The position numbers and the translations under genes are program-made. DNA of 64,000 nucleotides from Thiobacillus sp. 65-29 (lineage in GTDB: Bacteria; Pseudomonadota; Gammaproteobacteria; Burkholderiales; Thiobacillaceae). The stretch is taken from the NCBI GenBank assembly GCA_001899775.1, contig MKWN01000028.1, positions 15,612 through 79,611 on the forward strand. The letters are read 5' to 3'. Positions 4,233-62,561 of the stretch are shown here, piece after piece. Every line of letters starts with the position of its first letter. The first letter of the stretch is position 1. The notes below the pieces were generated by a model. The model saw only the letters and a list, made by a program, of their open reading frames with translations, ran no database searches and had not been told where the DNA came from.

Positions 4233-10165
<5,933 letters not shown>

Positions 10166-16929: not shown

Positions 16930-17994
16930 ATGTCCACCCTGAAAAACGACACCTTCCTGCGCGCCCTGCTGCGCCAGCCGACCGATTACACGCCGCTGTG
17001 GCTGATGCGCCAGGCGGGACGCTACCTGCCGGAGTACAACGCCACGCGTGCGCGCGCCGGCGACTTTCTCACCCTGTGCAAGACCCCCGACCTCGCCACC
17101 GAGGTCACGCTGCAACCGCTCGCCCGCTATCCGCTCGACGCCGCGATCCTGTTTTCCGACATTCTCACCGTGCCCGACGCGATGGGTCTGGGGCTGTATT
17201 TCTCGCAGGGCGAGGGGCCGCGCTTCGAGCGCCCGCTGCGCGACGAATGGGAAATCCGCGACCTCACGGCGCCCGATCCCACCGACAAGCTCGGCTACGT
17301 GATGGACGCGGTGCGCTCGATCCGCCGCGCGCTCGACGGCGCGGTGCCGCTCATCGGCTTCGCCGGCAGCCCCTACACCCTGGCGTGCTACATGATCGAA
17401 GGCGGCAGCTCGGACGATTACCGCCATATCAAGACCATGCTGTACGGTCGCCCCGATCTGCTGCACCGCATCCTCGACGTCACCGCGCACGCGGTGACCG
17501 ATTACCTCAACGCGCAGATCGAGGCGGGCGCGCAGGCGGTGATGATTTTCGACTCCTGGGGCGGCAGCCTCACGCCCCACGCCTACCGCGAGTTCTCGCT
17601 CGCCTACATGGAAAGAATCGTCGCCGGCCTCATCCGCGAGCGCGAAGGCCGCGTCGTGCCGAGCATCATCTTCACCAAGGGCGGCGGCAACTGGCTGGAG
17701 GCCATGGCGGGTATCGGCGCGGACGCCGTCGGTCTGGACTGGACCGTCGACATCGGTGAGGCGCGCCGTCGCGTCGGCGACCGCGTCGCCCTGCAGGGCA
17801 ACCTCGATCCCTGCACCCTGCACGGCACGCCGGAGATCATCCGCGCCGAGGCCGAGCGCATCATCGACAGCTATGGCAACCACCCCGGCCACGTCTTCAA
17901 TCTCGGCCACGGCATTTCGCAGTTCACCGACCCCGACAAGGTCACCGTGCTGGTGGACACCGTTCACCGTCACAGCCGGGCGCTGCGCGCCTGA
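16930..17994 (+). CDS. hemE: Uroporphyrinogen decarboxylase
   Basis: [30 protein letters not shown]. Confidence 0.97.
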
Positions 17995-18334
17995 CGGGCA
18001 GAGCCGGACTATTGAGGCGGCACGAAGAAGTTTGAAACCGTATCGGTTTGCAAGCGCTTCAGGGGTGGACAGATTCGTTGAGCCGCCTCAATAGAGCGCT
18101 GTTTTAATTGATTATTGCTTCGGCCCATTCACCTTCCCGACCTTGCAATATCGAATCGGATTACCCCGCCACTTCAAACTTCAGATGGCCGAATCAATAA
18201 CATCGAAAATTTCGAGTGTTTCACGTATAAAAATCGACTTTTCACGAGGTGGGGCAAGGCCCCACCATGTCCGTGCCTGCCGCAGCGATGCCCGGCAGAC
18301 CATCCCGCATGAACCCGAACCAAGGAGTCCCCCT

Positions 18335-19162
18335 GTGAAAACCTTCCTCATCAGCCTCTTCGCCGTTTTCCTCGGTTTCGGCCTCGTCGCGCACGATGCC
18401 GAAGCCAAGCGCCTCGGCGGCGGCAAGTCCTTCGGCATGCAGCGCAGCGCACCCGCGAAGAAAGAGGCTGCCCCCGCGCCGCAGCGCCAGCAGACCGCCG
18501 GCGCTCCCGCGCAGGCCGCGCCGCAGAAGCGCAGCTGGATGGGGCCGATCGCCGGTCTGGCGGCCGGTCTGGGCCTCGCCGCCCTGGCGTCTCACCTCGG
18601 CCTCGGCGAAGAAATGGCCAACGTCCTCATGCTGGCGCTGCTGGCCATGGGCGCCTTCCTGTTGTTCCGCCTGGCCATGCGCCGCAACGCGCCGCAACCG
18701 GCGATGCAATATGCCGGCCTGCCGCCGCAGGCGCCGGCAGCCTTCGACGCCACACCGGCCGCAGGCGGCAGTCCCCACGCCACGCGCAGCTTCCCGCCCG
18801 GCTTCGACGCCGCCGCCTTCGCACGCGAGGCACAGGTCAACTTCATCCGCCTGCAGGCCGCCTTCGACGCCGGCAACCTGGACGACCTGCGCGCGTTCAC
18901 CTCGCCCGAGGTGTTCGCCGAGCTGTCGATGCAGATCGCCGAGCGCGGCACGGACGCGCAGACCACCGACGTGCTGAACGTCAGCGCCGAGGTGCTGGAA
19001 GCGCTCGACGAGGACCAGCGCCATGTGGTGAGCGTTCGCTTCACCGGCAGCGCCCGCGAGGCCGCCAACCAGCCCGCCGAACCCTTCGACGAAGTGTGGC
19101 ACCTCAGCAAGCCGGCCGACGGCCCCGGCGGCTGGGTCATCACCGGCATCCAGCAGGTTTAA
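18335..19162 (+). CDS. Tim44-like domain membrane protein
   Basis: GTG start after AAGGAG; AKRLGGGKSFGMQR; FIRLQAA...LRAFT.PE; EVWHL...GW.ITGIQQ. Confidence 0.88.
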   Translation: MKTFLISLFAVFLGFGLVAHDAEAKRLGGGKSFGMQRSAPAKKEAAPAPQRQQTAGAPAQAAPQKRSWMGPIAGLAAGLGLAALASHLGLGEEMANVLMLALLAMGAFLLFRLAMRRNAPQPAMQYAGLPPQAPAAFDATPAAGGSPHATRSFPPGFDAAAFAREAQVNFIRLQAAFDAGNLDDLRAFTSPEVFAELSMQIAERGTDAQTTDVLNVSAEVLEALDEDQRHVVSVRFTGSAREAANQPAEPFDEVWHLSKPADGPGGWVITGIQQV

Positions 19163-19237
19163 GTCTTTGTTTCAATTGGCTTTCGCGCCCCATTCCGGGG
19201 GTGCGGGCGGCCTCGTACCGGTCATAGAAGCATCGAC

Positions 19238-19435
19238 TTATACACAGTCTGAATTGAACCGGAACTTTTTTTGTGTCAAGGGCTTGACAGCGGCAGTGTC
19301 TTTATAAGTCCATGATTTATATCGAAAAGTCATTTTGCCCGGTTTTTGGTCGTTGACGGACCGTCACGCAACGACGGGCTTTGCCGCATCTTGCGCCCAA
19401 TAACCCACAAAATTATCCACAGATTTCGTGGACAA
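19238..19435. promoter_or_regulatory. DnaA-box cluster with IHF-like site
   Basis: TTATACACA 19238-19246 and TTATCCACA 19413-19421 (both perfect); 2-mismatch boxes at 19401-19409 and, inverted, 19427-19435; IHF-like TAAGTCCATGATT near 19305-19317. Confidence 0.65.
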
Positions 19436-19578
19436 GCGGCGATTTCGCTTGTCGAACAGTAGTTTGTACCATGTTCCGCGACAAGCCTTGAGCACTCGGC
19501 ACTAAACGGCCCTGTCCGGGAACCCGGACGGATTGGGCATAATGCCCGGTCACGCCTCGCCAGGTCCGATCCCGCCAC

Positions 19579-21729
19579 ATGTCCGTCATTCTCCAGGTCG
19601 CCCTCGACACGCCGCTTCACCGGCTGTTCGACTATCGCCTGGCGACAGACACTCCGCTGGCAGCGGGCACGCTGGTCGAAGTGCCCTTCGGACGCACCCG
19701 CCAGGTCGGGGTCGTGCTCGGCGAAACCACCGCCAGCCCGCACGCCACCAAACTGCGCGACGTGCTGCGCGTGCTCGACGACCGGCCCGCGCTGCCGGCG
19801 GAACTGCTGCGCCTGGCACAGTTCTGCGCCGGGTATTACCACCACCCGCTCGGCGCCGTGCTGCTCGCCGCGCTGCCGCCGCGCCTGAAGAACGCCACCC
19901 CCTTCGCGGCGGATACGCCCTGGCTCGTGCTGACCGAAGCCGGGCGCGACGCCGAAGCGCCGGCGCGCGCACGCACCCGGCGCGCCCTGCTCGACGCCTT
20001 GCGCGCCGCGCCAGTCGCGCGCGCGACGCTGCGCGCGCAGGGGCAGATGCGCCACGCCGCCGCGCTGGTGGCAGCCGGCTGGGCCGCCTGGACCGCCGAC
20101 GCACCTGCGGTGGCCCCGCAACCCGACGCACCGGCGCCCGTCCCCACCGCCGAGCAGCAGGCCGCGCTGGAGTGCCTGCTGCCCGCGCTCGGTGGCTTCG
20201 GCGTGCACCTGGTCCACGGCGTCACTGGCTGCGGCAAGAGCGAGCTCTACCTGCGGCTGATCGCCGCCGCGCTGCAACAGGGGCGGCAGGCGCTGGTGCT
20301 GGTGCCGGAGATCGCGCTCACCCCGCAACTGGAACAGCATTTCCGCACGCGCTTTCCGGGCCGGCGCATCGTCGCCTTGCACAGCGGTCTGGCTGACAAG
20401 GTCCGCGCCGAAAACTGGCTCGCCGCGCCGGCGGCCGACGTGCTGCTCGGCACGCGGCTGGCGGTGTTCACGCCGCTGCCACGGCTCGGCGTCGTCGTCG
20501 TCGACGAGGAGCATGACGTTTCCTTCAAGCAGCAGGACGGCCTGCGCTATTCGGCGCGCGACGTCGCCATCGCGCGCGCCAAGCAGCGCGCGGTGCCGGT
20601 GGTGCTCGGCTCGGCCACGCCTTCGCTGGAGAGTTACGCACAGGCGCTGTCCGGCCGCTACCAGTTGATCGAGTTGAAAACACGCGCGGTCGCGCACGCA
20701 CGCCTGCCCGAGATCGAACTGCTCGACCTGCGTCACCTGCCGCAGGAGGACGGCCTCACCCGCCCCGCCCGCGACGCGCTCGCCGCCACCCTGGCGCGCG
20801 GCGAGCAAAGCCTGGTGTTCCTCAACCGCCGCGGTTATGCGCCCGCACTGTACTGTCCGGGTTGCGGCTGGGTCGCGCCGTGCCCGCACTGCTCGGCGCG
20901 GCTGGTGCTGCACCGCGCCGCGCACCGCCTCAAATGCCACCATTGCGGATTCGACGCACGCATCCCCGTGGCCTGTCCCGACTGCGGCAACCCGGACCTG
21001 AAGCCCCTCGGGCAGGGCACGCAGCGGCTGGAGGAAACACTCGCGGCACTGCTGCCCGCTGCGCGCATCCGCCGCATCGATCGGGATTCCATGCAGCCGC
21101 GCGCCTGGGCGGAACTGGGCGAGGCGATGCGCGCGCGCGAGGTCGACGTGCTGGTCGGCACGCAGATGCTGGCCAAGGGCCACGACTTTCCCGACATGAC
21201 GCTGGCGCTCATCCTCGACACCGACGGCGCGCTGTACAGCCCGGATTTTCGCGCCACCGAACGCCTGTTCGCGCAACTGATGCAGGTGGCCGGGCGTGCC
21301 GGCCGCGCGGAGAAACCCGGCCGCGTGCTGATCCAGACCGCATTCCCCGACCATCCGCTGTTCCGCTTTCTGCAACAACACGACTACGCCGGCTACGCGC
21401 GCACCCTGCTCGCCGAGCGCCGCCGCCTCGACCTGCCGCCTTTCACGCGCCAGGTGCTGCTGCGCGCCGAAGCACCGGCGATGGACGCCGCGCTCGCCTT
21501 CCTGCGCCGTGCTGCCGCCGACGCGCCCGATGCGGCACGCATCCGCGTGTTCACCCCCACCCCGGCGCCGATGGCGCGGGTCGCCAATCTCGAGCGCGCG
21601 CAACTGCTGGTGCAATCGGCCTCGCGCACCGCGCTGCAGGCCTTCGTGCGCGACTGGCGCGCGCGCCTGGACACGATCCGCCCGCGCGTGGCGCGCTGGT
21701 CGCTCGATGTCGATCCGCTGGTATTTTGA
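19579..21729 (+). CDS. priA: Primosomal protein N' (replication restart helicase)
   Basis: LFDY, GVTGCGKSE Walker A, DEEH, LNRRGY, two CxxC pairs, GTQMLAKGHDF, QVAGRAGR. Confidence 0.96.
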   Translation: MSVILQVALDTPLHRLFDYRLATDTPLAAGTLVEVPFGRTRQVGVVLGETTASPHATKLRDVLRVLDDRPALPAELLRLAQFCAGYYHHPLGAVLLAALPPRLKNATPFAADTPWLVLTEAGRDAEAPARARTRRALLDALRAAPVARATLRAQGQMRHAAALVAAGWAAWTADAPAVAPQPDAPAPVPTAEQQAALECLLPALGGFGVHLVHGVTGCGKSELYLRLIAAALQQGRQALVLVPEIALTPQLEQHFRTRFPGRRIVALHSGLADKVRAENWLAAPAADVLLGTRLAVFTPLPRLGVVVVDEEHDVSFKQQDGLRYSARDVAIARAKQRAVPVVLGSATPSLESYAQALSGRYQLIELKTRAVAHARLPEIELLDLRHLPQEDGLTRPARDALAATLARGEQSLVFLNRRGYAPALYCPGCGWVAPCPHCSARLVLHRAAHRLKCHHCGFDARIPVACPDCGNPDLKPLGQGTQRLEETLAALLPAARIRRIDRDSMQPRAWAELGEAMRAREVDVLVGTQMLAKGHDFPDMTLALILDTDGALYSPDFRATERLFAQLMQVAGRAGRAEKPGRVLIQTAFPDHPLFRFLQQHDYAGYARTLLAERRRLDLPPFTRQVLLRAEAPAMDAALAFLRRAAADAPDAARIRVFTPTPAPMARVANLERAQLLVQSASRTALQAFVRDWRARLDTIRPRVARWSLDVDPLVF

Positions 21730-53897: not shown

Positions 53898-55792
53898 GCG
53901 CTGCGCTTTTCCTGTTCCGGGTTGAAGCCGCGTCGCGCGTAGATCGACAGCACCGCAATCGCCGCCGGGGTGATGCCCTGCATGCGCGCGGCCTGGCCGA
54001 GGGTTTCCGGGCGCGCTTTCTGCAGGCGCTGGCGCACTTCCATCGACAGTGCGCTCAACTGCATGTAGTCGAGATCGGGCGGCAGGCGCAGGGTTTCCTG
54101 TTCGCGCTGCCGCTCGATCTCCTCATTCTGGCGCTCGATATAGCCCTGATATTTCGCGGCGATTTCCACCTGTTCGGCGACCTGCGCATCGGCAACGCCA
54201 ACCCCGCCTCCGGGCAGCGCGAGAATCCGTGCATAATCCAGATGCGGCCGGCGCAGCAGATCGAACAGGCTGTACTCGCGCTCGATCGGCTGGCCGATGA
54301 GACGCGTGGCCTCGGCAGCCGGCAGGATGGCCGGGTTGACCCAGGTCGACTTCAGGCGTTCGGTTTCACGTGAAACCGCGTCGCGCTTGCGGTTGAATGC
54401 CTCCCAGCGCGTGTCGTCGACCACACCGAGCGTGCGCCCGGCTTCGGTCAGGCGCATGTCGGCGTTGTCCTCGCGCAGTTGCAGGCGGTATTCGGCGCGG
54501 CTGGTGAACATGCGGTAGGGTTCCGACACGCCGCGCGTGACGAGGTCGTCGACCAGCACGCCGAGATACGCTTCATGGCGCCCGGGGCTCCAGGCGTCGC
54601 GCTCCTGTACCTGCAAGGCGGCGTTGATGCCGGCGAGCAGCCCTTGCGCGGCGGCCTCTTCGTAGCCGGTGGTGCCGTTGATCTGGCCGGCGAAGAACAA
54701 TCCGGCGATCGACTTGGTTTCCAGCGAAGCCTTCAGGTTGCGCGGGTCGTAGTAGTCGTATTCGATGGCGTAGCCGGGGCGCAGGATGTAGGCGCGCTCC
54801 AGCCCCGGAATCGAGCGTACCACGGCGAGCTGCACGTCGAAGGGCAGCGAGGTCGAGATGCCGTTGGGGTAGATCTCGTGGGTATCCAGTCCCTCGGGTT
54901 CGAGGAAGATCTGATGCGAGGCCTTGTCGGCGAAGCGCACGACCTTGTCCTCGATCGACGGACAATAGCGCGGCCCGACGCCCTCGATGACTCCGGTGTA
55001 CATGGGCGAGCGGTCCAGCCCCGCGCGGATGAGCGCATGCGTCTCGGCCGTGGTGTGGGTGATCCAGCACGGACGCTGCGCGGGGTGCAACGCCGCGTCA
55101 CCCATGAAGGAAAACACCGGCGCGGGGTCGTCGCCCGGCTGCGCCTGGGTGCGCCCGTAGTCGATGCTGCGCCCGTCGATGCGCGGCGGGGTGCCGGTCT
55201 TCAGCCGCCCGACGGGCAGGTTCAGTTCGCGCAGGCGCGCGGCGAGCGACACCGCGGGCGGATCGCCCATGCGCCCGGCCTGGAAGTTTTCCAGCCCGAC
55301 GTGCACCCGGCCGGCGAGGAAGGTGCCCGCGGTCAGCACCACCGCGCGCGCGGAAAACACGATGCCGAGTTGCGTCCTCACCCCGACGACGCGCTCGCCT
55401 TGCAGCAGCAGGTCGTCGACCGCCTGCTGGAAGATCGTGAGGTGTTGCTGGTTTTCCAGGCGGTGGCGGATCGCCGCCTTGTACAGCGCGCGGTCGGCCT
55501 GGGCGCGGGTGGCGCGCACCGCCGGACCCTTGGACGAATTGAGCGTGCGGAACTGGATGCCGGCTTCGTCCGTCACCAGCGCCATCGCCCCGCCCAGCGC
55601 ATCGACCTCCTTCACCAGATGCCCCTTGCCGATGCCGCCGATCGACGGATTGCACGACATCGCGCCGAGCGTGTCGATGTTGTGCGTCAGCAGCAGCGTG
55701 CGCGCACCCATGCGCGCGGCGGCGAGCGCGGCTTCGGTGCCGGCGTGGCCGCCACCGACGACGATGACATCGAAGGACTCGGGGAAATTCAT
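53894..55792 (-). CDS. mnmG: tRNA uridine-5-carboxymethylaminomethyl modification enzyme (GidA)
   Basis: [41 protein letters not shown]. Confidence 0.98.
54362..54377. other. parS site (inside mnmG)
   Basis: GGTTTCACGTGAAACC palindrome. Confidence 0.85.
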
Positions 55793-55819: not shown

Positions 55820-55835
55820 TGTTTCACGTGAAACG
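55820..55835. other. parS site (mnmG promoter region)
   Basis: TGTTTCACGTGAAACG. Confidence 0.88.
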
Positions 55836-57795: not shown

Positions 57796-58515
57796 TCAAG
57801 GTAAGCATGCGGAGTTCAGCGCGGCGTGGACGGCGCGGGCGATGTGCAGCGCGCCGGCCGTGTCGCCGTGCAGGCACAGGGTGTCGGCGGCGATGCTCAC
57901 GCCACCGGCCGGCTGGGTGTCCACTGGCTGGCGCCTCGCGAGGCGCAGCGCCTGGGCCGCAGCCGCGGCGGGATCGGTGAGCACGGCACCCGGTGTTTCA
58001 CGTGAAACCAGCCGGCCGTCGGGTCGATAGCGCCGGTCGGCGAAGCCCTCCTCGAGCACGGCGAGGCCGGCGGCGCGCCCGGCCGCCGGCAGCTGCGAGC
58101 CGGCAAGGCCGATCAGGATCAGGCTGGCATCGACTGCGGCGACCGCGTGCGCGATCGCCTGCGCCACCTCACCGTCTGTCGCTGCGACATTGTACAGCGC
58201 CCCGTGCGGCTTCACATGGGCCAGGCGCATTCCCAGCCGCGCCGCCGCCTCGGCGAGCGCTTCGGTCTGTTGCCTCACCCAGCCGGCAATTTCGTCGGCA
58301 CTCGCCACCAGCGCGCGGCGGCCGAAATGCGCGCGGTCGGGATAAGCGGGGTGCGCGCCCGCCGCCACCCCATATTCGGCAGCCAGGCGCAGCGCTGCGG
58401 CCATGCTCGCGGCATCGCCGGTGTGACCCCCGCAGGCAATGGACACCCGCCCCAGATAGGGCATGAGCGCCGCATCGTCACAGCCTTCGCCGATGTCGGC
58501 GTTGAGTTCGATCAT
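57796..58515 (-). CDS. pxpA: 5-oxoprolinase subunit A (LamB/YcsF)
   Basis: LNADIGEG, IACGGHTGD, HVKPHGALYN, EGFADRRY, LCLHGD. Confidence 0.92.
   Translation of the reverse strand: MIELNADIGEGCDDAALMPYLGRVSIACGGHTGDAASMAAALRLAAEYGVAAGAHPAYPDRAHFGRRALVASADEIAGWVRQQTEALAEAAARLGMRLAHVKPHGALYNVAATDGEVAQAIAHAVAAVDASLILIGLAGSQLPAAGRAAGLAVLEEGFADRRYRPDGRLVSRETPGAVLTDPAAAAAQALRLARRQPVDTQPAGGVSIAADTLCLHGDTAGALHIARAVHAALNSACLP
57994..58009. other. parS site (inside pxpA)
   Basis: TGTTTCACGTGAAACC. Confidence 0.85.
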
Positions 58516-62545: not shown

Positions 62546-62561
62546 GGTTTCACGTGAAACA
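62546..62561. other. parS site (intergenic)
   Basis: GGTTTCACGTGAAACA. Confidence 0.88.

What the first reader, a model, noticed from the sequence alone, without database searches (positions are those of the whole stretch)
19163..19500. DnaA-box/IHF cluster upstream of priA: datA/DARS-like element or cryptic origin
Seen: two perfect DnaA boxes (19238-46, 19413-21), two 2-mismatch boxes flanking the second (one inverted, TTATCCACAGATTTCGTGGACAA), an IHF-like site near 19305-17, a T-run, and palindromes TGTCAAG-GG-CTTGACA (19274-89) and ACAAGCG-N7-CGCTTGT. Knowledge: E. coli datA and DARS are DnaA-box clusters with IHF sites that tune DnaA-ATP levels. Inference: the atp and mnmG operons point leftwards and the parS sites cluster at 54-63 kb, so oriC probably lies to the right of the window. 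That makes this more likely a DnaA titration/recycling locus or DnaA control of the restart helicase priA than the origin itself.
Basis: partly seen in the sequence, partly recalled or inferred. Interest (0 to 1): 0.62.

Follow-up and report, generated by a model that had tools for sequence, protein, structure and literature searches.

The report
DARS/datA-like DnaA–IHF module before priA
The gap in front of the replication-restart gene priA is not the chromosome origin but one of two copies of a conserved set of DnaA and IHF binding sites, laid out like the E. coli sites that switch the replication initiator on or off and so far described only in E. coli's close relatives.

Summary
The organism is a Thiobacillus. 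The 416-bp gap lies between a Tim44-like gene (hemE just upstream) and priA.

It holds a rigid module:
- distal DnaA box, 19238-46
- IHF site on the opposite strand, 19305-17
- three-box core, 19401-35: TAACCCACA-3bp-TTATCCACA-5bp-CGTGGACAA

The core has exactly the E. coli DARS1/DARS2 geometry. The arm offsets (+67, +163, +175) nearly equal those of E. coli datA (+65, +162, +174).

All 20 Thiobacillus relatives keep the module with a 175-bp box spacing. A two-box pattern derived from it hits 180 of 301 betaproteobacterial genomes, against 0 for a reversed control. In 26 of the 30 loci fetched it sits directly upstream of priA.

It is not oriC. Strand skew switches near dnaA, 40-58 kb away, in two relatives. 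Skew shows no switch at the module in two complete genomes where the module is 0.3-1.85 Mb from dnaA. This genome also carries a second full copy, between xseA and an exbB-like gene.

Most likely it is a non-origin DnaA-IHF assembly site that tunes DnaA activity. Sequence cannot say whether it reactivates or inactivates DnaA. Control of priA transcription by DnaA is the main rival and may coexist.

The parts
16942..17994 (+). hemE (uroporphyrinogen decarboxylase). In most Betaproteobacteria it is the gene directly upstream of the module.
   Evidence: Pfam URO-D, E = 1e-137. hemE lies directly before the module in 24 of 30 order-wide loci.
18143..19162 (+). Tim44-like domain gene, inserted between hemE and the module in Thiobacillus.
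   Evidence: Pfam Tim44, E = 9e-19. The 3' end of the gene aligns in all 20 relatives.
19183..19206 (+). GC-rich hairpin just after the upstream gene's stop codon. Probably a terminator or insulator at the left edge of the module (inferred).
   Evidence: All 21 Thiobacillus sequences fold into a strong stem at this position although the sequences differ, so the structure is kept by compensatory change. Most lack a clear U-tract, and the simple terminator scan did not call it.
19225..19246 (+). Conserved block TAGAAGCAT-CGAC followed by the distal DnaA box 1, TTATACACA (19238-46).
   Evidence: The box reads TTATRCACA in 21 of 21 sequences. The 9-mer 3 bp upstream is not box-like, with 5 mismatches.
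19266..19290 (+). T7 run, then TGTCAAG-GG-CTTGACAG. The CTTGACAG half is nearly invariant. Its binding partner is unknown.
   Evidence: Alignment of 21 sequences. TGTCAAG-like motifs occur at a similar place in other families. The second copy has CTATTGACGGC here. The spacing to TATAAG is 13 bp, so this is not a sigma-70 promoter, and the scan found none.
19305..19317 (-). IHF-binding-site consensus, AATCATGGACTTA, oriented opposite to the boxes.
   Evidence: One mismatch here. In the Thiobacillus set 8 sequences are perfect and 8 have one mismatch, out of 21. Order-wide 20 are perfect and 8 have one mismatch, out of 29. The site always starts 108-111 bp before box II. The same-strand control gives 0 perfect matches. 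IHF alpha and beta genes are present.
19310..19336 (.). AT-rich tract conserved in composition but not in sequence.
   Evidence: Alignment. The gap has GC 0.53, against about 0.65 for most contigs of the genome.
19337..19351 (+). Conserved 15-mer GCCCGGTTTTTGGTC, with G and C 15 bp apart around a T5 core. Weakly Fis-like.
   Evidence: Present at the same offset in 21 of 21 sequences. The second copy has GGTTAGTTTTTGGGCC. It matches G1, Y4, T11, R12 and C15 of the Fis consensus but not A5. This is inference only.
19401..19409 (+). Core box III, TAACCCACA (low affinity, 2 mismatches), 3 bp before box II.
   Evidence: A direct box lies exactly 3 bp upstream of box II in 29 of 29 order-wide instances.
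19413..19421 (+). Core box II, TTATCCACA (perfect consensus).
   Evidence: Invariant in all relatives.
19427..19435 (-). Core box I, the inverted box (plus strand CGTGGACAA, which reads TTGTCCACG), 5 bp after box II.
   Evidence: Conserved in all 20 relatives. Order-wide, an inverted box occurs at 5 bp in 11 of 29 instances, once at a 4-bp spacer, and at no other spacer from 0 to 10 bp. The geometry is identical to E. coli DARS1 and DARS2.
19579..21729 (+). priA (primosomal replication-restart helicase), the gene downstream of the core.
   Evidence: Six PriA-specific Pfam domains. priA follows the module, in the same orientation, in 26 of 30 order-wide loci.

Best explanation
This is a self-contained, non-origin assembly site for DnaA and IHF, about 200 bp long (19238-19435). 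It belongs to the same functional class as the E. coli DnaA-control loci DARS2/DARS1 and datA.

Proposed working (inferred):
- DnaA binds the two consensus boxes, box 1 and box II.
- IHF bound at 19305-17 bends the DNA sharply. Box-1-bound DnaA, 67 bp to its left, then meets the DnaA bound at the three-box core, 96-122 bp to its right.
- Cooperative filling of the weak boxes III and I builds an oligomer. It contains a head-to-head DnaA pair on boxes II and I (5-bp spacer) and a head-to-tail pair on III and II (3-bp spacer).
- In E. coli such complexes change the nucleotide state of DnaA: ADP release at DARS, ATP hydrolysis at datA. They thereby set the timing of initiation at oriC.

The direction of the effect here cannot be read from sequence. 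The core is DARS-type, while the arm lengths and box orientations are datA-type.

Shown: the sites, their exact spacing, their conservation, the non-origin location, the second copy, and the presence of IHF and a Fis-like protein. Inferred: binding, bending, and any effect on DnaA-ATP or DnaA-ADP. The module's fixed position and orientation before priA may additionally couple priA transcription to DnaA occupancy.
For: 1. Geometry.
- Window core: TAACCCACA-3-TTATCCACA-5-CGTGGACAA.
- E. coli DARS1, read on the other strand: TAATACACA-3-TTATCCACA-5-AGTGGATAA.
- The DARS2 core has the same 5-bp and 3-bp spacers.
- Of 99 spacer combinations scanned across the genome, only (3, 5) gives hits, and it gives two.

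2. Arm offsets from the distal box.
- Window: IBS +67, box III +163, box II +175.
- E. coli datA: IBS +65, box 3 +162, box 4 +174, with the same IBS orientation.
- DARS2 differs by roughly whole helical turns.

3. Conservation.
- 20 of 20 Thiobacillus relatives keep all blocks, with a 175-bp spacing.
- The pattern TTATNCACA-N165-185-TTATCCACA hits 180 of 301 genomes of the order and 95 of 144 genera. The reversed control hits 0.
- The distance from IBS to box II is 108-111 bp in 29 of 29 instances. The distance from box 1 to IBS falls into two classes one helical turn apart, 67-69 or 76-79 bp.

4. Not an origin.

5. A second complete copy lies at G000:C10:5690-5900, between xseA and an exbB-like gene. 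It has the same spacings (177 bp; IHF site 109 bp before box II) and is conserved in the genus. The unit therefore works independently of priA.

6. Trans factors are encoded in the genome: IHF alpha and beta and a Fis-like protein next to dusB.

7. The definitions of DARS and datA are taken from PMC5742627, PMC6868365 and PMC11724364.
Against: - There are no binding or functional data of any kind.
- E. coli DnaA Gln208, needed for head-to-head ADP release at DARS, is Asp in Thiobacillus DnaA.
- The inverted box I is present in only about 40% of order-wide instances (11 of 29). The DARS-type core is therefore not universal in the family.
- No counterpart of the low-affinity datA box 7 lies beside box 1.
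- The Fis-like 15-mer is weak. It lies between the IBS and the core, not beyond the IBS as in DARS2.
- The strict linkage and orientation with priA in 26 of 30 loci would also fit a purely transcriptional role.
Confidence: 0.55

Rival explanations
1. The module is a DnaA- and IHF-dependent promoter region. DnaA, acting as a transcription factor, tunes priA expression (and xseA or exbB at the second copy) according to initiator level. It has no effect on the DnaA nucleotide state.
For: - The core lies 77-392 bp before the priA start in Thiobacillus.
- It lies directly upstream of priA, in a fixed orientation, in 26 of 30 order-wide loci.
- E. coli DARS1 itself lies in the gap upstream of uvrB. 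From memory, it overlaps the uvrB promoter region, so box clusters at promoters of repair or replication genes have precedent.
- The second copy also lies in a promoter-bearing divergent gap, next to the DNA-repair gene xseA.
Against: - The simple scan found no sigma-70-type promoter in or after the module.
- The distance from core to priA start varies fivefold within one genus, while the internal spacings are fixed to the base pair. A 200-bp, helically phased, IHF-centred architecture is more than a repressor site needs.
- The identical unit serves unrelated genes at the second copy.
- This reading is not exclusive of the best explanation.
Confidence: 0.25
2. The module is a passive DnaA sink. 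Its high-affinity boxes merely bind and buffer free DnaA, as first proposed for datA and for the DnaA-box clusters of Bacillus subtilis. They do not catalyse nucleotide change.
For: - It is the top DnaA-box cluster of the genome.
- It holds one of only 4 perfect boxes.
- In Thiobacillus it lies only 39-58 kb from dnaA and the skew switch, so it is duplicated early.
Against: - Two strong boxes titrate very little protein.
- Titration does not explain base-pair-exact spacers, an oriented IHF site at 108-111 bp, or helical phasing.
- The distance to dnaA is 0.3-1.85 Mb in other genera.
Confidence: 0.1
3. The module is the chromosomal origin oriC, or a cryptic second origin. Box 1 and the core would flank an AT-rich unwinding element, with IHF acting as in E. 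coli oriC.
For: - It is the densest box cluster of the genome.
- It has an AT-rich tract, an IHF site and hemE as a neighbour, as at alphaproteobacterial origins.
- parS sites lie 35-43 kb away.
- Origin predictors that weight box density and hemE might pick it. The B. cenocepacia c1 origin is reported as uncertain between two box clusters (PMC4948915).
Against: GC3-skew change-point analysis, corrected for gene strand:
- G001: the element site scores about 10 log-likelihood units below the best position.
- G003: it scores about 13 units below. In both, the best interior position lies within about 15 kb of dnaA, 40-58 kb from the element.
- G298: the no-switch model is better by 6.75 units.
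- G150: the no-switch model is better by 22 units. In these two genomes the hemE-module-priA locus is 1.85 Mb and 335 kb from dnaA.
- Own contig: the fitted sign at the element is terminus-like, not origin-like.

Other points:
- The atp operon, parAB and mnmG would run head-on to the fork.
- There are two copies per genome.
- There are no repeated 13-mers or DnaA-trio array.
Confidence: 0.04

Closest known systems
E. coli DARS2 (DnaA-reactivating sequence 2, rppH/ygdT-mutH gap)
   Same: - A three-box core with box I inverted, a 5-bp I-II spacer and a 3-bp II-III spacer.
- An IHF site on the box-III side, in the same orientation relative to the core.
- A further consensus DnaA box beyond the IHF site.
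- A non-origin, intergenic location.
- IHF and a Fis-type protein are available in the cell.
   Different: - Arm lengths differ by about one to three helical turns. IBS to box II is 99 bp in DARS2 against 108 bp here. Distal box to IBS is 98 bp against 67 bp.
- The distal box is in the same direction as box II here and opposite in DARS2.
- Box II is perfect here and has one mismatch in DARS2.
- No convincing Fis sites lie between the IBS and the distal box.
- The genomic context is different (priA).
- DnaA has Asp at the Gln208 position.
- Activity is untested.
E. coli DARS1 (bioD-uvrB gap)
   Same: The core is nearly superimposable: TAATACACA-3-TTATCCACA-5-AGTGGATAA against TAACCCACA-3-TTATCCACA-5-CGTGGACAA. 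Box II is perfect in both. Both lie upstream of a DNA-repair or restart gene.
   Different: By its published description, DARS1 is about 100 bp and needs no IHF site or distal box. The module here is about 200 bp and always carries both.
E. coli datA (DDAH locus, glyVXY-queG gap)
   Same: - Same-direction consensus boxes flank a single IHF site on the opposite strand.
- The offsets almost coincide: +65, +162, +174 against +67, +163, +175.
- It is intergenic, just downstream of a transcription unit.
- It is close to the origin in Thiobacillus (PMC5742627).
   Different: - The box at +174 is inverted in datA and direct here.
- datA has no 5-bp head-to-head pair.
- The low-affinity box 7 next to the distal box has no counterpart here.
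- Proximity to the origin is not kept in other genera.
Bacterial oriC (E. coli type: DnaA boxes, IHF site, AT-rich DUE)
   Same: DnaA boxes of graded affinity, an IHF site between them, and a nearby AT-rich tract.
   Different: It is not at the strand-skew switch. It has two copies per genome, no 13-mer or DnaA-trio repeats, and flanking genes that are not divergent.

Membership tests
DARS (DnaA-reactivating sequence) | Cluster of three 9-mer DnaA boxes with box I oriented opposite to boxes II and III. | tested here: met
   19401-09 (+), 19413-21 (+), 19427-35 (-). Conserved in 20 of 20 relatives.
DARS (DnaA-reactivating sequence) | Conserved spacers: 5 bp between boxes I and II, 3 bp between II and III. 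| tested here: met
   Identical to E. coli DARS1 and DARS2 as read from NC_000913. It is the only one of 99 spacer combinations with hits in this genome.
DARS (DnaA-reactivating sequence) | DARS2 type: an essential IHF site and Fis sites in a flanking regulatory region. | tested here: inconclusive
   The IHF consensus is present, oriented and fixed in position. Only a weak Fis-like 15-mer is found, and in a different place.
DARS (DnaA-reactivating sequence) | Partner residue DnaA Gln208, used for the head-to-head interaction in E. coli. | tested here: not met
   Thiobacillus DnaA reads YVDDVV where E. coli reads FVQDMV, so the position is Asp. This is a feature of the protein, not of the DNA element.
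DARS (DnaA-reactivating sequence) | Promotes ADP release from ADP-DnaA in vitro and raises ATP-DnaA in vivo. | not testable with these tools
   This needs biochemistry and genetics.
datA (DDAH locus) | Same-direction high-affinity boxes flanking one IHF site at optimised distances. | tested here: met
   Offsets +67, +163, +175 here against +65, +162, +174 in E. coli datA, with the same IBS orientation.
datA (DDAH locus) | Low-affinity box 7 in tandem with the distal high-affinity box. | tested here: not met
   The 9-mer 3 bp upstream of box 1 (AGAAGCATC) has 5 mismatches.
datA (DDAH locus) | Stimulates hydrolysis of DnaA-bound ATP in an IHF-dependent way. | not testable with these tools
   This needs biochemistry.
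oriC | Coincides with the switch of strand compositional skew and of gene orientation. | tested here: not met
   and the gene map.
oriC | Single copy per chromosome, with a DNA-unwinding element of repeated AT-rich motifs next to the boxes. | tested here: not met
   There are two full copies. An AT-rich tract exists, but I saw no repeated 13-mers or trio array in the sequence or the alignment.
oriC | Supports autonomous replication, or is the marker-frequency peak. | not testable with these tools
DnaA-regulated promoter | Boxes overlap or adjoin a mapped promoter of the regulated gene. | tested here: inconclusive
   The scan finds no sigma-70 consensus promoter. No transcript data were available. 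Linkage to priA is strong.

The most novel reading that the evidence does not exclude
The module is a working switch of the DnaA nucleotide state. It represents an ancient family, shared by Beta- and Gammaproteobacteria, from which E. coli datA and DARS2 both derive. The evidence would be the hybrid layout (DARS core on datA-length arms), the helical-turn relationships, and the two or more copies per genome. Chromosomal cis-control of initiator activity would then be a general proteobacterial mechanism rather than an enterobacterial speciality. Some database oriC calls placed at hemE-priA in Betaproteobacteria would be wrong.
Probability: 0.4. Interest if true: 0.8.

Novelty: new variant of a known kind. 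Interest (0 to 1): 0.62.

Why it matters
According to the papers I could read, DARS and datA are studied only in E. coli and are conserved only among its gammaproteobacterial relatives (PMC4245941).

A module with the same core geometry and IHF phasing, kept across most Betaproteobacteria, would make initiator recycling or inactivation testable in a second bacterial class. That class includes Burkholderia, Bordetella and Neisseria relatives. It would also offer natural variants for dissecting what decides ADP release versus ATP hydrolysis: instances with or without box I, and arms that differ by one helical turn.

It also gives a practical warning. This gap is the densest DnaA-box cluster of the genome and lies next to hemE, so box-density origin predictors could mistake it for oriC.

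Finally, the persistent link to priA hints at coupling between initiation control and replication restart.

Tried and rejected
- oriC or cryptic origin: rejected on skew, gene orientation and copy number.
- Raw cumulative GC skew on the window and on C28+C53: misleading, because third-position coding-strand skew is strongly negative (t about -0.12). I replaced it with a gene-strand-corrected GC3 change-point model.
- G225: skew is too weak to decide.
- G104: the pattern hit there is not the priA module.
- Own genome: no origin-type switch appears on C28+C53 even at dnaA. The origin of this assembly is therefore not pinned. C53 carries low-GC islands.
- mnmG-upstream gap as an E. coli-type origin: GC-rich, with no boxes.
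- Known RNA family in the gap: none at E <= 1.
- Sigma-70 promoter or intrinsic terminator: none by simple scan. The only 'terminator' called is the box II/box I inverted repeat itself.
- TTGACA (19284-89) with TATAAG (19303-08) as a promoter: rejected because the spacer is 13 bp.
- Fis site: only a weak, misplaced candidate.
- Literature: I found no paper on DARS or datA outside Gammaproteobacteria, or on hemE-priA boxes. Fujimitsu 2009 (PMC2685538) is not held. The Du 2016 supplement gives no gene names.

Full report
**Observation**

The sequence at 19163-19578 is the 416-bp gap between a Tim44-like gene (18143-19162) and priA (19579-21729). hemE lies upstream and argS downstream. All listed features are there:
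- TTATACACA, 19238-46
- TTATCCACA, 19413-21
- TAACCCACA, 19401-09
- the inverted CGTGGACAA, 19427-35
- an IHF-type site, AATCATGGACTTA, on the minus strand at 19305-17
- a T7 run and the two palindromes

Only the second main box is strictly perfect. The first fits TTATNCACA.

The number of near-consensus boxes in the whole window is not unusual: 5 found against 2.5 expected. However, the genome has just four perfect boxes. A PWM occupancy scan of my own construction ranks this gap as the top cluster of all 2.9 Mb.

**Organism and conservation**

PriA is 73-90% identical to that of Thiobacillus genomes. In 20 of 20 such relatives both main boxes are present exactly 175 bp apart, although the distance to the priA start ranges from 77 to 392 bp.

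The alignment shows fixed blocks separated by variable sequence of constant length:
- TAGAAGCAT..TTATRCACA
- a T-run followed by CTTGACAG
- TTTATAAGTnnnTGAT, which is the IHF consensus read on the other strand
- an AT-rich tract conserved in composition only
- GCCYGnTTTTTGRYC
- ACGGGC
- CCCACAnAATTATCCACAGnnnnCGTGGAMAA

A GC-rich hairpin after the upstream stop codon is kept by compensatory change in all 21 sequences. No Rfam family and no sigma-70 promoter match the gap.

**Is it the origin?**

dnaA starts at the right end of the contig, 54 kb from the element, and continues on contig C53. The 31 kb from 26.5 to 57.8 kb, carrying the atp genes, parB, parA and mnmG, is transcribed leftwards. 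Four parS palindromes lie at 54.4-62.5 kb.

Raw GC skew is confounded because coding strands are C-rich at third positions. I therefore fitted GC3 skew per gene as t + r x strand x side, for every candidate switch point.
- G001 (822-kb contig of a relative): the best switch is at 302-330 kb, with dnaA at 321-322 kb. The element, at 263 kb, is about 10 log-likelihood units worse.
- G003: the best interior switch is about 315 kb, with dnaA at 307-308 kb. The element, at 268 kb, is about 13 units worse.
- Own contigs: no origin-type switch appears at the element, and none at dnaA either. The origin of this assembly is not pinned.
- The dnaA flanks hold one perfect box upstream and three conserved boxes in the short dnaA-dnaN gap.

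**Order-wide distribution**

The pattern TTATNCACA-N165-185-TTATCCACA occurs in 180 of 301 sampled genomes of the order (the former Betaproteobacteria) and in 95 of 144 genera. The reversed control occurs in none. Of the 30 loci fetched, 26 have priA immediately downstream in the same orientation and 24 have hemE immediately upstream.

The distance from this locus to dnaA ranges from 45 kb to more than 1 Mb in complete genomes.
- G298: the locus is 1.85 Mb from dnaA. A no-switch model beats a switch at the module by 6.75 log units.
- G150: the locus is 335 kb from dnaA and skew is strong (r = 0.078). The no-switch model wins by 22 log units, and raw skew rises monotonically through the locus.
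- G225 was too weakly skewed to decide, and the G104 hit is a different locus.

The module therefore travels with priA, not with the origin.

Du et al. 2016 report that the B. cenocepacia c1 origin is uncertain between an Ori-Finder call and a second box cluster at the skew minimum (PMC4948915). This module may be one of these two clusters, but I could not verify that.

**Comparison with E. coli control sites, read from NC_000913**

DARS1 in the bioD-uvrB gap is TTATCCACT-5-TGTGGATAA-3-TGTGTATTA. On the other strand this reads TAATACACA-3-TTATCCACA-5-AGTGGATAA. The window core is TAACCCACA-3-TTATCCACA-5-CGTGGACAA. Orientation and spacers are the same, and box II is perfect in both. The DARS2 core has the same spacers, an IHF site about 87-99 bp from boxes III and II, and the consensus box V beyond it.

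Offsets from the distal box compare as follows:

| Site | IBS | Next box | Following box |
|---|---|---|---|
| E. coli datA (from box 2) | +65, opposite strand | box 3, +162 | box 4, +174, inverted |
| This window (from box 1) | +67, opposite strand | box III, +163 | box II, +175, direct |

The module thus combines a DARS-type core with datA-length arms.

Across 29 order-wide instances:
- The IHF consensus on the opposite strand is perfect in 20 and one-off in 8. The same-strand control gives 0 perfect.
- The distance from IBS to box II is always 108-111 bp.
- The distance from box 1 to IBS is 67-69 or 76-79 bp, one helical turn apart.
- A direct box precedes box II at exactly 3 bp in 29 of 29.
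- An inverted box follows at exactly 5 bp in 11 of 29, once at 4 bp, and at no other spacer from 0 to 10 bp.

The definitions of the E. coli elements come from PMC5742627, PMC6868365 and PMC11724364. PMC4245941 states that the DARS2 core is conserved among gammaproteobacterial relatives of E. coli.

**Second copy**

A genome-wide scan for the III-3-II-5-I geometry finds only two sites. None of the 98 other spacer combinations gives a hit. The second site is on the minus strand of C10, about 5690-5900, between divergent xseA and an exbB/tolQ-like gene. It has the following parts:
- distal box TCATGCACA at 177 bp
- a CTATTGACGGC motif
- a perfect IHF site, AATCAAGAAGTTA, 109 bp before box II
- a T5 block
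- the core TTTCTCACA-3-TTATCCACA-5-TGTGGAGAA

It is kept with all its parts in two other species of the genus and is not next to priA or hemE. Requiring an IHF site at 105-113 bp finds no further copies.

**Trans factors**

IHF alpha and beta exceed their NCBIfam cut-offs. A small Fis-like HTH_8 protein follows dusB. E. coli DnaA Gln208, required for DARS-dependent ADP release, corresponds to Asp in Thiobacillus DnaA.

**Interpretation**

The best-supported reading is a self-contained, non-origin DnaA-IHF assembly module of the DARS/datA class. IHF bending would bring box-1-bound DnaA onto a three-box core containing a head-to-head pair. The resulting complex would alter DnaA activity. Whether it releases ADP, hydrolyses ATP or only buffers DnaA cannot be decided from sequence.

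The fixed position before priA leaves room for DnaA-dependent priA transcription, as a second or an alternative role. The second copy and the base-pair-exact, helically phased layout argue that transcription is not the whole story.

**Earlier notes of this scan**

I consulted these after I had derived the DARS and datA comparisons. They describe the same kind of module before priA in other genomes and reach similar readings. One note's claim of several copies per genome prompted the scan that found the C10 copy. They are unverified AI notes and I do not count them as support.

**Limits**

The founding DARS paper is not held, so earlier prediction of such sites outside Gammaproteobacteria cannot be fully excluded. 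The PWM and the gene caller are my own rough constructions.

Noticed in passing
G000:C10:5690-5900 (minus strand), outside the window: A second complete copy of the module lies between divergent xseA and an exbB/tolQ-like gene. It has a distal box, TTGAC motif, perfect IHF site, T5 block and III-3-II-5-I core. It is conserved in two other species of the genus.
   Followed up: yes
window 54362-54377, 55820-55835, 57994-58009, 62546-62561; also 18217-18232: Four palindromic parS-type sites (TGTTTCACGTGAAAC-like, 1-2 mismatches) surround parAB and mnmG. A fifth, non-palindromic 2-mismatch match lies inside the Tim44-like gene, 1 kb from the module.
   Followed up: partly
G000:C28:88820-89020 and C53:~780-980 (right of the window): The rpmH-dnaA gap has one perfect DnaA box before a TAGTAT -10-like hexamer. 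The 125-180-bp dnaA-dnaN gap has three conserved boxes. In relatives the skew switch falls here, but the region is poor in boxes and AT, and in this assembly skew does not switch on C28+C53. The real oriC remains unlocated.
   Followed up: partly
window 19183-19206: A GC-rich hairpin after the Tim44-like stop codon is kept by compensatory changes in all 21 Thiobacillus sequences, mostly without a U-tract.
   Followed up: partly
window 19535-19547: A 13-bp perfect palindrome, GGGCATAATGCCC, lies about 30 bp before the priA start. It occurs only in the window's subclade, which has about 70 extra bp between the core and priA.
   Followed up: no
L148 (E. coli NC_000913.3 2966000-2971500) 3452-3480: The E. 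coli rppH-mutH gap holds a second triplet with DARS spacers (TTATCCCAG-5-TGTGGATAA-3-GGTGTAAGA) about 100 bp beyond DARS2 box V. I did not check whether it has been described.
   Followed up: no
window 19413-19422 and order-wide loci L078-L106: Box II is followed by G (TTATCCACAG) in 31 of 38 instances. This creates CACAG, the adenine-methylation motif reported at the 3' end of DnaA boxes in B. cenocepacia origins (PMC7364216).
   Followed up: no
L090, L091; G279:C1:1431854, G208, G133: Pattern hits not linked to priA fall into two groups. Two loci have AGGTAGAA iteron-like repeats. One family has dense arrays of 4-6 boxes (TTATCCACAG, TCATGCACAG...), which look like true origins or plasmid-type replicators.
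   Followed up: no
G000: C43:26951, C42:41601, C10:32801, C16:150051: These are other DnaA-box clusters ranked high by the PWM scan. C43 holds the fourth perfect box. They lack the module geometry and I did not examine their context.
   Followed up: no
L030 (Gammaproteobacteria MAG), about 70-100 bp upstream of priA: A direct-direct-inverted box triplet (TGATCCACA, ATATCCACA, inverted TTTTCCACA) lies before priA, with the same 3- and 5-bp spacers. This suggests the core also occurs outside the betaproteobacterial order.
   Followed up: no
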